NCBI RefSeq assembly: GCF_009914755.1
Contig: NC_060927.1
Source of the DNA: the human T2T-CHM13v2.0 reference genome, Homo sapiens
Strand: one strand, 5' to 3'
DNA length: 64,000 nt
Each line of letters starts with the position of its first letter. Position 1 is the first letter of the stretch. The translations under genes and the position numbers were made by a program. A model generated the notes under the pieces. That model had not been told where the DNA came from. It did no database searches and worked only from the letters and a program-made list of their open reading frames with translations. This document shows positions 1-61,291 of this stretch, in pieces.

Positions 1-1339
1 TCTGCCAGGCTTCTGCACATGTGCCTTTCTTTCCACTAGGTGGCAAGCGCCGACTGCACAATGAAAGGATGTCAGGACGCTGCCTCTCAGTCACTTTTCC
101 AGACACAGTGGACGTAATGCAATTGTGATTTTCCTCTCAACTCCCACAGGTCTCTGAAACTTAACTGCCAGCCTGTAGCTGAGTCCTGTGTCTCAAACCA
201 TAGCCAGGTCAGAGTTTATTTTGAAAGTGGCATGTGGAGTAATATGCCAGATGGTTCGGAGAGAACAAATGTTGCTCAAAGTTCTTACTCCTAAACTGCA
301 GTTGTAGAAGTGTTCTGTCACTGTCCAGGTAATTCTTCCTTTAGCGTAGATAGAATAAAGGGTCTGGGGTTTGTGCAAGTAAAGGGATGAGCAATTAGAG
401 GAGAAATTGTGAGAAAGGGAAGAGATACAGGTTTTGGATATTAAAAGAACCTTTTTTAAAAAAACACACATAGAGGTTGGGGGCCGCAGCTGAACTAACA
501 GGCTATTGCCCTGTGCTCCTGCATTTCAGGCCCCGTAAGAGTTAGATTCTCCCAGGCTCTCTCCTTTGCCTTTGATTTGATTTCCGTTTCTTGATTCTTT
601 TGTTTTCCTGGTGAAGTCTCCTTCCTCTCTGTCTGGAAAGGGGGCAGAGCTTCAGCCTAAGAAAAGCAGGCTGTAGTGACAAAGAAAATGTGCTTCCTCA
701 ATAGATGCAGGTGGAGGCTGTCATCCTGCAAGGATGTTAGACATGGAAAATCACGCGATGTAGAGTTGCCGGGCTGAGCGCGAGCTGGCCAGTCTCTTCT
801 GAGCAGACTCCTTGTCTAAGCCCCCTCCTTGAATATCTGTAGGCAGATGGGCTTTGGAGCCTAGAATATGCTTTTTTAGTTTCTCAGGAAAGTTTTCATC
901 ATTGTTCCTCAGCCTTCGCTATCAGAGATTTTCTTCGCTCTCAGCCAAATCCCTGATGTCTCAGGAGAGGCCCGTCTTCCCTGACCTGTCATCAGCAGCC
1001 CTCTCAATTAATGCTGGACATCTTTTTCAGGGCTACGCTGACTTCTCAAATATTTCTTTTGGCTGCGTTGGGGTTGCTGCTTACGAACACTTGGATTCAG
1101 GTTTATTTTGTTTTAGTTTTTCTCCTGGGAAGTTGCTATATCATATTGTGAGTAGACAATTATCACTGTAGATGAATCCAGCTGCCCACAACCAAATCTG
1201 CAGGATGAGTTTCCTCAACATCCCCTCTCCCCTAGCTCCTGCGGATGGATGTACCTAGAGTTTTTTTTTTGTTTTTTTTTTTTAATCATCTGGAGCACTC
1301 CTTCCACGGTCATCTCTTAGTGTAACTGCACGTTTTTGA

Positions 1340-25235: not shown

Positions 25236-25290
25236 GTGCTCTTGACTTTGAACACATTGAAGAACAAGCAGAAGGCATCTTTGGAGGAAG
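25236..25290 (+). CDS. ITPR1: ITPR1 exon (window exon 14): GALDFEHIEEQAEGIFGG(S); ends at a non-canonical GA donor
   Basis: tttcag acceptor; the known protein IFGGSEENTP requires the junction GGAAG|T, which places the intron start at gaaagt. Confidence 0.9.
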
Positions 25291-25464
25291 GAAAGTATAT
25301 TTTCAGTTACTGTTTTGTAGGGAAGGCTGCTCTTCCAGAGCTCTCAGAGGCCTTCCCTTTATTATGTTAGTAAATATTTAGTCTCTGGGCTTAGGTTGTT
25401 TTGGTGCTATCTTTGGAACTGTTAGTACTCAAGTCAGAGTTAACTTGGTTGGCTTGATTGGGAG

Positions 25465-25496
25465 GAGAGAGAGAGTGAGAGAGAGAGAGAGAGAAA

Positions 25497-25544
<48 letters not shown>
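25465..25544 (+). repeat. Compound microsatellite (GA)n-(GT)22
   Basis: read directly from sequence. Confidence 0.98.
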
Positions 25545-25547
<3 letters not shown>

Positions 25548-26794
25548 ACCTAGGACAGAAAGGATTTAAGGAGATTTCTCAAAATACCTACATTACAAGA
25601 TTATTTTTACATAGTGAGGAAATGCAATCAAAAGAAGAATAGAAAGAGAGAGGGGCTCAAAACAGAGTGAAGTTAGTAAGATCATGTCCTGCTGCTGCTG
25701 CTGGGCTACAATTTTATCCCTGAGCTCCTTACAGGCTATGCAACAAAGAAAGCAAAATCTGTTCTTTCATTGTTCCTAATATTAATGTATGAACCCCTTT
25801 AAAAAAAAACCGCACTGGTCAATTTTGACTTAAGACATTATTATAATTATGGAACTCTTATACCTCCAAGTATAAAATTTGGTATAAACACCATATGCAC
25901 GTAGTTCTTATAATTAGCACACTTGGTTTGATTATTGCTTTATAACATATTACTCCAAAAAACTGAAGGATTCAAACCACCACCATTTTATTAATACTTC
26001 TTACAGCCCTGTGGCTTGATTAAGCTGGATGGTTCTTCTGCTGGTGGTCACTGTTGGGTCTGTCATACTGTAGTGAGGTGGTAACTGGGGCTGGCACCTC
26101 CAAGTTGGATTATTCACATTTCTGGCACTATAGCAGAGATGCCTGCAAGGCCAGAACTTCTTTCTCTCTCTGTCCATGTGGATAGCTTGGGCTTCTTTAC
26201 AGCACGGTGGCTGACTCAAAAAGCAAATGTTCTAAGAGGACAAGCCAACAGTATGCAAGTGCTAATTGGGCCTCTGCTTGCATTGCATCTCCTAATATCT
26301 TATTGTTCAAGCAAATCCCATGGCCAAGCTCATTGTCAGTGTGGGAGGGGACTACATAAGGGTTTGAACACTCTGTTGGGGCCCACCAGTGTTAATAGTC
26401 TACCTCAATGCTTAATATAAAACCTGTGAAATTTGAATTAGCAACATTATGTACTATGATGGAAGATGTTTTTCTGAAACTTAAACATGGTATTGTGAGT
26501 TTAGCATAATACAGGTTCCATGTGCTGTGTGATCACTCAGCTCTCCCGCCATTTTCCTCATAGTGAACAGCATTGAAACCTTCACACCTTTTTGGAATAC
26601 ATAGCATGAATACAGTATTTATAAGTCTTCTCTGTGCTTTTCTTATTAGCCAGCAACCAGGAAGTTTCCACCATTTGTCATTCATTTGACTCTAAACCCA
26701 ATATAGGTGCAGACCCAATAATTGACTAGCAGTGCTCAGTTATGGAGTAGTCTGCCATTTGATCTAGGATATGCTTATTAATATTTAAATATAG

Positions 26795-26915
26795 TCAGGC
26801 ATGGTAGTGCATTCCTATAGTCCCAGCTACTCAGTATGCTAAGGCAGGAGGATCATTTGAGCATAGGAGTTTGAATTCAGCCTGAGCAACATAGCAAGAC
26901 CTCATCTCTAAAAAC
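26795..26915 (+). mobile_element. Alu monomer (FLAM-like)
   Basis: caggcatggtagtgcattcctatagtcccagctac...cagcctgagcaacatagcaagacc. Confidence 0.8.
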
Positions 26916-27271
26916 TAAATACATAAACTAATAACTTAGGAGAAACACATCCTCTTGCAGTTCTCAGACCACAGACGAAGCCCAGCAGAAGAACACCCTA
27001 TGTAGATGTTGAGAATCTAATGCTAGTCTTGTCACTTTGGCTTAAAATTTGACTTATCTTTTAATATGACATCTTCCTTGTCCCCTCACCTCATAATATA
27101 GTTGAAGATGAAGCAAGGCTGTATTGTTAAAGGAGCTAATGAAAAGTGAAATTGCATGTCTGGAGATCACAGTGCTAGAAATGCAACTAGGTTAGGTGCA
27201 TCTGGGCCCAAGGGGCGTGAGAGGAGGCATTTGTCATTCATTTGGCCTTTCCCCACCTTGTGCTCCTTTAG

Positions 27272-27437
27272 TGAGGAGAACACCCCACTGGACTTGGATG
27301 ACCACGGCGGCAGAACCTTTCTCCGTGTCCTGCTCCACTTGACGATGCATGACTACCCACCCCTGGTGTCAGGGGCCCTGCAGCTCCTCTTCCGGCACTT
27401 CAGCCAGAGGCAGGAGGTGCTCCAGGCCTTCAAACAG
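27272..27437 (+). CDS. ITPR1: ITPR1 exon (window exon 15): [18 protein letters not shown]...EVLQAFKQ
   Basis: ctttag acceptor; CAG|gtagct donor; within ORF 27156..27512. Confidence 0.97.
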
Positions 27438-27513
27438 GTAGCTCAGGTCACCCACGTGTGTGTTGTCTGTCCAAGAAGCTGTTGTGTGCACCTAACGGAT
27501 TGCGTTCATTAAG

Positions 27514-61258: not shown

Positions 61259-61291
61259 CTAATTTCCATTGATGAATTGGATAATGCTGAG
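61259..61291 (+). CDS. ITPR1: ITPR1 33-nt microexon LISIDELDNAE (first part of the neuronal SII insert)
   Basis: cctaac branch point at 61216-61221, long CT tract, ccag acceptor; weak GAG|gtccta donor; translation matches the SII segment. Confidence 0.92.

What the first reader, a model, noticed from the sequence alone, without database searches (positions are those of the whole stretch)
25281..25311. Non-canonical GA 5' splice site with two competing GT donors (three-way splice choice)
Seen: the sequence is ttggaggaAG|GAAAGTatattttcaGTtact. The IP3R1 protein as I know it (IFGG-S-EENTP) needs the junction AG|T with the exon at 27272, so the intron must start with GA at 25291. AG|GAAAGT matches the U1 consensus AG|GTAAGT except at the normally invariant +2 T. 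A GT at 25295 (+4 nt) would frameshift. A GT at 25306 (+15 nt) stays in frame and replaces S with RKVYFH. Inference: a major receptor isoform depends on a GA-AG intron, and donor choice could switch between normal protein, an NMD target and a 5-aa-longer isoform. GA-AG introns are very rare. This one may already appear in surveys of non-canonical splice sites, so novelty is unverified.
Basis: partly seen in the sequence, partly recalled or inferred. Interest (0 to 1): 0.85.

Follow-up and report, generated by a model that had tools for sequence, protein, structure and literature searches.

The report
Known GA-AG intron in ITPR1
One intron of the human calcium-channel gene ITPR1 really does begin with GA instead of the near-universal GT, but this was published and confirmed at the bench in 2014 and is in the standard gene annotation, so it is a genuine rarity and not a new one.

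Summary
Observation confirmed; already known. The window reads ggaggaag|GAAAGTATATTTTCAGTT at 25283-25308. All 4 of 4 RefSeq ITPR1 mRNAs join 25290 to 27272, so the 1981-nt intron is GA..AG. It is the only non-GT donor among 28 distinct junctions in the window. No canonical placement gives the same mRNA. Six of six distinct IP3R1 sequences in the PDB read GGS then EENTP across the junction. Parada et al. 2014 (PMC4176328, Fig. [quoted passage not shown] A 2026 preprint calls it a non-canonical U2 intron. The donor matches the U1-complementary consensus at 9 of 11 positions, failing only at -3 and +2. The homologous phase-2 introns of ITPR2 and ITPR3 start with GT, so GA is probably derived. 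Its first seven intron bases, GAAAGTA, equal those of the FGFR1 and FGFR3 GA sites, but it lacks their upstream helper GT. The "three-way choice" is unsupported: the +4 GT is the consensus's own +5/+6 GT, both GTs are weak, and no RefSeq transcript uses them. Read counts could not be checked.

The parts
25236..25290 (+). 55-nt coding exon (exon 26 of MANE NM_001378452.1) that ends in the Ser1054 codon AG|T. It is 60% purine and contains GAAGAA and GGAGGAAG.
   Evidence: RefSeq exon present in 4 of 4 transcripts. Numbering and phase. Composition. PDB IP3R1 chains read GALDFEHIEEQAEGIFGGS.
25288..25298 (+). The GA 5' splice site, positions -3 to +8: aag|GAAAGTAT. Cleavage is between 25290 and 25291, and the non-canonical A (+2) is at 25292.
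   Evidence: Sequence. It matches CAG|GTAAGTAT at 9 of 11 positions, tied best of 29 annotated donors in the window, with mismatches only at -3 and +2.
25291..27271 (+). The GA..AG intron, 1981 nt, U2-type.
   Evidence: No U12 donor or branch-site motif. Published as a GA-AG non-canonical U2 intron.
25295..25296 (+). As a donor it reads aaa|GTATATTT, and use with the normal acceptor would give GGRK then a stop.
   Evidence: 6 of 11 matches, duplex -4.2 kcal/mol. Product. Not used by any of 4 RefSeq transcripts. This GT is the one in the false GT-AG alignment described in PMC4176328.
25306..25307 (+). The GT at '+15', reading tca|GTTACTGT. It is in frame, and its use would replace S with RKVYFH.
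   Evidence: 5 of 11 matches, duplex -1.2 kcal/mol. Product. Not annotated.
27237..27271 (+). 3' splice-site region. It holds a candidate branch point TTCAT (A at 27240, 32 nt upstream of the exon), a polypyrimidine tract (86% pyrimidine over -25..-4) and a canonical AG at 27270-27271.
   Evidence: Sequence. Motif scan. The branch point is a motif match only and was not mapped.
27272..27437 (+). Downstream coding exon. It starts with T (third base of the Ser codon) and then encodes [10 protein letters not shown]...
   Evidence: It is 100% identical over 55 aa to 6 distinct PDB IP3R1 sequences.

Best explanation
This is the constitutive, U2-type GA-AG intron of ITPR1 (c.3161+1G, +2A in the MANE transcript). 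It is a real, previously published exception to the GT rule and not a regulated three-way donor switch. Shown: the mRNA junction is 25290|27272 and only a GA..AG intron with a proper acceptor can produce it. Shown: proteins made from IP3R1 cDNAs read GGS-EENTP across it. Shown: apart from +2 the donor is almost ideal (AG at -2/-1, G at +1, AAGTAT at +3..+8), there is no U12 signature, and the acceptor has a strong pyrimidine tract and AG. Inferred mechanism: U1 snRNA pairs in the normal register over -2..+8 with a single internal mismatch at +2. The consensus +3..+6 and the exon-end AG then keep the later U6 and U5 contacts in the same register, so cleavage falls before the GA. The neighbouring GTs are poor sites in every other position and are not chosen. 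This is the logic reported for the FGFR GA sites (consensus otherwise), except that here a good exon side (AAG) stands in for the helper GT that FGFR has 6 nt upstream. Inferred history: ITPR2 and ITPR3 have GT at the homologous phase-2 intron, so the ITPR1 GA most simply arose by a T-to-A change at +2 of a /GTAAGTAT-like donor after the paralogues split.
For: Sequence. The junction is used by 4 of 4 RefSeq mRNAs and is the only non-GT among 28 junctions. Only GA-AG, GG-TA and AG-TT placements give the same mRNA. PDB: 6 of 6 distinct IP3R1 sequences have ...IFGGS at 1026-1044 (or 1021-1039) directly followed by EENTPLD at 1045 (or 1040). That fits the GA junction and not the false canonical one, which would read GGRKENTP. 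[quoted passage not shown] Donor quality is 9 of 11, tied best of 29 donors; the other 28 average 6.9. No GT or GC lies between -16 and +4, and no nearby candidate beats 7 of 11 or -6.8 kcal/mol. No U12 donor or branch motif is present; there is a yUnAy at -32 and the pyrimidine tract is 86%. Paralogues: ITPR3 ggg|GTGAGG and ITPR2 aag|GTATAG, in the same phase, with junctions confirmed by contiguous PDB numbering. FGFR1 and FGFR3 GA sites read aca|GAAAGTAG, so intron bases +1..+7 are the same.
Against: No sequencing reads were available, so 'constitutive' rests on annotation, one paper and cDNA-derived proteins, not on junction counts. A minor leak to the GT sites is not excluded. By computed U1 duplex energy the GA site is only mid-rank, -7.8 kcal/mol, 16th of 29, so pairing strength alone does not explain efficient use. 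As relayed by Parada et al. and by Frey and Pucker, the FGFR work found that the GA site depends on an upstream GT and on downstream intron elements. ITPR1 lacks the upstream GT, so its autonomy is my inference and untested. Parada et al. themselves say constitutive non-canonical sites are unexplained. Vertebrate conservation of the A at +2, and the date of the T-to-A change, could not be tested because no vertebrate genomes were on hand. The direction of change is parsimony over three paralogues only.
Confidence: 0.9

Rival explanations
1. One reading: three donors (GA, GT at +4, GT at +15) compete. Choice among them switches ITPR1 output between the normal protein, an NMD target and an isoform 5 aa longer, possibly in a tissue-specific way.
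For: Both GTs exist and the predicted products are as stated: GGRK then stop, and GGRKVYFHEENTP. In the Parada survey 76% of non-canonical sites take part in alternative splicing, mostly through alternative 5'/3' sites. An NMD product would be under-represented in annotation.
Against: None of the 4 RefSeq transcripts uses either GT, and ITPR1 has no further models in this annotation. Both GTs are weak: 6 of 11 with -4.2 kcal/mol and 5 of 11 with -1.2. The +4 GT is part of the GA donor's own consensus and is shared by the FGFR GA sites. The only published GT model at this spot is reported as a mapping artefact. Literature searches for ITPR1 with GA-AG or non-canonical splicing turned up no report of such isoforms. 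Supplementary tables of PMC4176328 were closed and might list alternative use.
Confidence: 0.08
2. It is a U12-type (minor spliceosome) intron with non-canonical ends, as U12DB once classified it.
For: The U12DB classification is reported in the TOGA2 preprint. U12 introns tolerate unusual terminal dinucleotides (PMC4176328 discussion).
Against: The donor GAAAGTATAT has no match to the /RTATCCT U12 donor motif. There is no TCCTTRAY or CCTTRA branch motif in the last 60 nt (motifs recalled). There is a long pyrimidine tract of 86%. IntronIC classifies it as U2 according to the preprint.
Confidence: 0.02
3. The A at 25292 is an assembly error or a rare allele, or the true junction is the canonical GT(+4)..AG(+4) pair and the mRNA differs from the genome.
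For: A canonical GT..AG pair (25295..27275) exists with the same length and frame. A GENCODE model used it.
Against: That pair predicts GGRKENTP, whereas 6 of 6 distinct PDB IP3R1 sequences read GGS+EENTP. RefSeq cDNA-based transcripts align at 25290/27272 on T2T-CHM13. Parada et al., on an earlier reference, found Sanger-sequenced cDNA matching the genome without mismatch only under the GA-AG reading. So two different assemblies carry GA. Population data were not available here.
Confidence: 0.01

Closest known systems
The ITPR1 GA-AG junction itself, as published (Parada et al. 2014, NAR, PMC4176328, Fig. 6A; TOGA2 preprint 10.64898/2026.06.30.735536, Suppl. Fig. 8A)
   Same: It is the same intron of the same gene. 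The paper's 'TGAG' ambiguity is exactly window 27272-27275 against GAAA at 25291-25294, with three mismatches. RefSeq annotates it as GA-AG.
   Different: Nothing of substance differs. The preprint numbers it intron 24, whereas it is intron 25 or 26 in the four RefSeq transcripts. The passages I saw do not give the paralogue comparison or the FGFR heptamer comparison.
The /GA alternative 5' splice site at the end of exon 10 of FGFR1, FGFR2 and FGFR3 (Twigg et al. 1998; Brackenridge et al. 2003; known to me from citing passages and from recall, since the papers are not held)
   Same: It is a U2-type GA..AG intron. Intron bases +1..+7 are identical (GAAAGTA) in FGFR1, FGFR3 and ITPR1. All carry the consensus +5/+6 GT.
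   Different: The FGFR GA site sits 6 nt downstream of a canonical donor (cag|GTAACA|GAAAGTAG) and is an alternative choice that adds two residues. Its exon side, ACA, is poor, giving 6 of 11 and -4.4 kcal/mol. ITPR1 has no GT or GC from -16 to +3, has AAG on the exon side (9 of 11, -7.8), and is used by all 4 RefSeq transcripts. FGFR2 was not examined here.
Genome-wide GA-AG introns of Eurytemora affinis and Oikopleura dioica (Frey and Pucker 2020, PMC7072748)
   Same: The GA is flanked by an upstream AG and a downstream A, as here, and no upstream helper GT is present (passages).
   Different: In those species GA-AG is a common class, outnumbering GC-AG there, and may be served by a variant U1. 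In human it is an isolated exception.
U12-type introns with non-canonical termini
   Same: The ends are non-canonical, and the intron was once filed as U12 in U12DB.
   Different: No U12 donor or branch-site motif is present, and there is a strong pyrimidine tract. IntronIC calls it U2.

Membership tests
U2-type GA-AG non-canonical intron | The intron begins GA and ends AG, and no canonical placement yields the same mRNA. | tested here: met
   Only GA-AG, GG-TA and AG-TT placements are equivalent. The RefSeq junction is 25290/27272.
U2-type GA-AG non-canonical intron | The junction is supported by expressed sequence, not by prediction alone. | tested here: met
   4 of 4 curated NM transcripts use it. 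6 of 6 distinct PDB IP3R1 sequences read GGS|EENTP contiguously. RT-PCR and Sanger confirmation is published (PMC4176328). Raw reads were not available.
U2-type GA-AG non-canonical intron | The remaining 5' splice-site positions fit the U1/U6 consensus. | tested here: met
   9 of 11 matches to CAG|GTAAGTAT, with all of +3..+8 and -2..+1 matching. The consensus and the U1 5' end were typed from recall as short motifs.
U2-type GA-AG non-canonical intron | U2-type 3' end: a yUnAy branch candidate, a pyrimidine tract and AG. | tested here: met
   TTCAT at -32, 86% pyrimidine over -25..-4, and AG at 27270-27271. The branch point is a motif match only.
FGFR-type 'parasitic' GA site (a GA donor that depends on an adjacent canonical donor) | A canonical GT donor lies 6 nt upstream of the GA. 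| tested here: not met
   No GT or GC lies between -16 and +3 of the ITPR1 site. FGFR1 and FGFR3 both show cag|GTAACA|GAAAGTAG.
FGFR-type 'parasitic' GA site (a GA donor that depends on an adjacent canonical donor) | The GA site is an alternative choice that gives two in-frame isoforms. | tested here: not met
   All 4 RefSeq ITPR1 transcripts use the GA site, and no annotated alternative donor exists for this exon.
FGFR-type 'parasitic' GA site (a GA donor that depends on an adjacent canonical donor) | The site depends on downstream intronic enhancer sequences. | not testable with these tools
   The elements are known to me only from one sentence in PMC4176328. ITPR1 has a G-run (tagggaagg) about 26-34 nt into the intron and (GA)15(TG)22 at +175..+254, but function needs a minigene.
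U12-type intron | A /RTATCCT donor motif and a TCCTTRAY branch site 10-30 nt from the acceptor. | tested here: not met
   Regex scans of the donor and of the last 60 nt found neither.
   None of the 4 RefSeq transcripts uses 25294 or 25305. The published GT model is reported as an artefact. Read-level use could not be tested because reads are closed.

The most novel reading that the evidence does not exclude
The ITPR1 GA donor works on its own. It needs no helper GT, unlike the FGFR sites, and so would be a clean natural model of how the human spliceosome passes an A at +2 through both catalytic steps. Because it is sub-optimal, it may also act as a built-in throttle or weak point for ITPR1 expression. 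A small share of transcripts would slip to the +4 GT, hit the immediate TGA (GGRK-stop) and be degraded by NMD. That share might rise when spliceosome components are perturbed in neurons that depend heavily on IP3R1.
Probability: 0.12. Interest if true: 0.45.

Novelty: already known. Interest (0 to 1): 0.15.

Why it matters
The site matters mainly in practice. It sits in a disease gene; that ITPR1 is linked to spinocerebellar ataxias 15/29 and Gillespie syndrome is my recall, though listings show it in ataxia and aniridia reviews. It is a proven trap for software. Aligners and annotators that allow only GT-AG, GC-AG and AT-AC force a false GT-AG junction that changes two residues, SE to RK. 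U12DB misfiled the intron, and that propagated into orthologue annotation. Variant interpretation rules that treat +1/+2 as 'canonical GT' do not fit c.3161+2A. Biologically it is one of the few constitutive GA donors in a major human gene. It differs from the FGFR paradigm in lacking a helper GT, so it is a reasonable substrate for asking how +2A is tolerated. None of this is new enough to rank the finding high.

Tried and rejected
Hidden canonical junction: rejected, because only three placements give the same mRNA and none is canonical.

U12 intron: rejected on motifs and on the published intronIC call.

A-to-I editing making the site canonical: rejected on first principles. Editing the A of GA would read as GG, not GU. 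Parada et al. list edited sites in a table seen, and ITPR1 is not among the rows shown there.

Local RNA structure presenting or hiding the donors: folding 25236-25360 gave z = 0.28, with 117 of 200 shuffles folding at least as well. There is no signal.

Known structured RNAs: Rfam found 0 matches in the whole window.

Retrocopy of ITPR1 that would show the spliced junction as DNA: the 55-aa exon matched only 3 places in the genome, ITPR1, ITPR2 and ITPR3.

Vertebrate conservation: not testable, because no vertebrate genomes were on hand. I considered using mis-predicted orthologue proteins (GGRKENTP) as a proxy.

Literature (6 of 10 searches counted as used; 7 calls, one of which errored). 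'GA-AG' + 'ITPR1' gave 2 papers. 'GA-AG' / 'non-canonical splice' / 'FGFR' gave 60 papers holding at least 2 of the 3 terms, 25 listed. 'ITPR1' + 'non-canonical' + 'splice site' + 'intron' gave 17, 16 listed. 'ITPR1' + 'noncanonical splice' gave 0. 'GA-AG' + 'IP3R1' gave 0. 'GA-AG' + 'U1 snRNA' + 'human' gave 3.

Papers seen. PMC4176328: abstract, sections 17-19 and passages. The TOGA2 preprint: one figure legend only. PMC7072748: passages only. PMC1557818: a term count only, with 0 hits for GA-AG, ITPR1 and inositol. PMC8975553: passages about an alternative start site in Itpr1, irrelevant here. Twigg 1998, Brackenridge 2003 and Burset 2000 were not seen and are cited from reference lists, citing passages or recall. 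Supplementary tables of PMC4176328, which are closed, may hold read counts, mouse conservation and alternative use for this junction.

Full report
WHAT IS THERE. Window 25281-25311 reads ttggaggaag|gaaagtatattttcagttact, with g at 25290, g at 25291 and a at 25292. The next coding exon begins at 27272, after ...gtgctcctttag. In the RefSeq table for this chromosome ITPR1 has four transcripts, all curated NM records. All four join 25290 to 27272. Of the 28 distinct junctions that lie in the window, 27 are GT..AG and this one is GA..AG. In the MANE transcript NM_001378452.1 the upstream exon is exon 26 and the junction is c.3161|3162. The split codon is AG|T = Ser1054, phase 2. Sliding the junction shows that the same mRNA can be written only as GA-AG, GG-TA or AG-TT, so no canonical reading is hidden in the repeat of AG. 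The intron is 1981 nt long.

IS THE JUNCTION REAL.

(i) The RefSeq transcripts are cDNA-based and align here without needing a canonical site.

(ii) Protein sequences deposited with solved IP3R1 structures cross the junction. Six of six distinct IP3R1 sequences read GALDFEHIEEQAEGIFGGS, at 1026-1044 or 1021-1039. This is followed directly by [10 protein letters not shown]..., at 1045 or 1040. The competing canonical pair, GT at 25295 with the AG at 27274-27275, has the same length and frame but would give GGRKENTP. That sequence is not what is seen.

(iii) Parada et al. [quoted passage not shown] Its reads are forced by TopHat, with three mismatches, onto a false GT-AG. A GENCODE model carries the same error. 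[quoted passage not shown] The 'TGAG' of their figure legend is window 27272-27275 set against GAAA at 25291-25294. Their reference predates T2T-CHM13, so two assemblies carry the A at +2.

[quoted passage not shown] It says the intron was misclassified as U12 in U12DB and was classified correctly by intronIC. The feature is therefore real and already known.

HOW THE SITE LOOKS TO THE SPLICEOSOME. Against the 11-position complement of the U1 5' end (CAG|GTAAGTAT, typed from recall), the GA site aag|GAAAGTAT matches 9 positions. The two misses are -3 and +2. This ties for best among the 29 annotated donors of the window; the other 28 average 6.9. The computed U1 duplex energy is -7.8 kcal/mol, which is only 16th of 29. 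Pairing is therefore extensive but interrupted.

No GT or GC lies between -16 and +3. Among all GT/GC candidates from 25236 to 25600, none exceeds 7 of 11 or -6.8 kcal/mol. The +4 GT is not an independent feature. It is positions +5/+6 of the donor consensus and is present in any /GTAAGT-like site.

The 3' end is ordinary U2-type. It has a TTCAT branch candidate with its A at 27240, 86% pyrimidines over -25..-4, and AG. There is no /RTATCCT donor motif and no TCCTTRAY or CCTTRA branch motif. The upstream exon is short, at 55 nt, and purine-rich, at 60%, with GAAGAA and GGAGGAAG. That fits enhancer-assisted exon definition, but this is inference only. Folding 25236-25360 shows nothing unusual, with z = 0.28. 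The motif by itself is not beyond chance: six + strand sites in the window reach 9 of 11, two of them annotated donors, and AGGAAAGT occurs four times.

PARALOGUES. The 55-aa downstream exon finds exactly three places in the genome: ITPR1, chr12 and chr6. These lie inside ITPR2 and ITPR3. I located the upstream small exons by local tblastn and alignment.

- ITPR3 ends ...ATGTTTGGAGTGGG|GTGAGG.
- ITPR2 ends ...ATGTTTGCGGGAAG|GTATAG.

Both small exons are 58 nt and end in phase 2, as in ITPR1. Their junctions are confirmed by contiguous numbering in PDB chains. ITPR2 ...MFAGR sits at 1022-1041 and the downstream exon runs from 1043 at query residue 2. ITPR3 ...MFGVG sits at 1021-1039 and the downstream exon runs from 1043 at query residue 4. 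The same intron therefore has a canonical GT in two of three paralogues. The ITPR1 GA is most simply a derived T-to-A change at +2. When it happened I could not test.

COMPARISON WITH THE FGFR GA SITES. I read the FGFR1 and FGFR3 sites from the reference; FGFR2 was not examined. Both are cag|GTAACA|GAAAGTAG. The first seven intron bases of the GA site, GAAAGTA, are identical to ITPR1. That is what 'consensus except +2' predicts. The arrangement differs, however. In FGFR the GA lies 6 nt downstream of a canonical donor (7 of 11, -8.0 kcal/mol) and has a poor exon side, ACA (6 of 11, -4.4). According to the passages in PMC4176328 and PMC7072748, its use depends on that upstream GT and on downstream intron sequences. 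ITPR1 has no such GT, has AAG on the exon side, and is used by every RefSeq transcript. It belongs to the constitutive class that Parada et al. say the parasitic model 'cannot explain'.

THE THREE-WAY CHOICE. The +4 donor gives GGRK followed at once by TGA, and the +15 donor gives GGRKVYFHEENTP. I found no evidence that either donor is used: 0 of 4 RefSeq transcripts, no further ITPR1 models in the annotation, and no report in the literature searches. The one GT model in print is called an artefact. A low-level or NMD-masked leak therefore remains possible, and that is my 'novel case'.

VERDICT. The novelty is 'already known', since the junction is annotated in RefSeq, was published with bench validation in 2014 and was discussed again in 2026. 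The small additions here are the canonical GT at the homologous intron of ITPR2 and ITPR3, the shared GAAAGTA with FGFR1 and FGFR3, and the absence of the FGFR-type helper GT. Interest is 0.15.

Noticed in passing
window 25465-25544: A compound microsatellite, (GA)15 followed by (TG)22.5, lies inside the GA-AG intron, 175-254 nt downstream of the donor. Whether GU- or GA-repeat binding proteins affect use of the weak donor is unknown.
   Followed up: partly
window 19093 / 19120: Two alternative GT donors 27 nt apart (aag|GTAACA and aga|GTGAGT) are each used by 2 of 4 RefSeq transcripts. From recall this is the 9-residue SIII splice region of IP3R1.
   Followed up: no
window 27438-27513: A very short 76-nt intron sits right after the exon downstream of the GA-AG intron. 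Its acceptor reads attgcgttcattaag| and has a weak pyrimidine tract.
   Followed up: no
window 61259-61291: A 33-nt exon is joined from 55760 in only 2 of 4 RefSeq transcripts. It is probably the start of the neuronal SII alternative region (recall), which runs beyond the window.
   Followed up: no
window 885-895: A second GA site, cag|GAAAGTTT, also matches the donor consensus at 9 of 11 positions but is not an annotated splice site. This shows that the motif alone does not make a donor.
   Followed up: no
L007 5395-5452 (ITPR3) and L005 2118-2175, minus strand (ITPR2): The small exon homologous to window 25236-25290 is 58 nt in both paralogues against 55 nt in ITPR1, with the same phases. 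The peptide motif (E/A)QAE..(I/M)F.G just before the junction is conserved in all three.
   Followed up: partly
window 26772-26917: This is the only stretch masked as a repeat (100 bases or more) between 24000 and 28000, and it lies inside the GA-AG intron. No enhancer, silencer or other functional element is annotated in that span.
   Followed up: no
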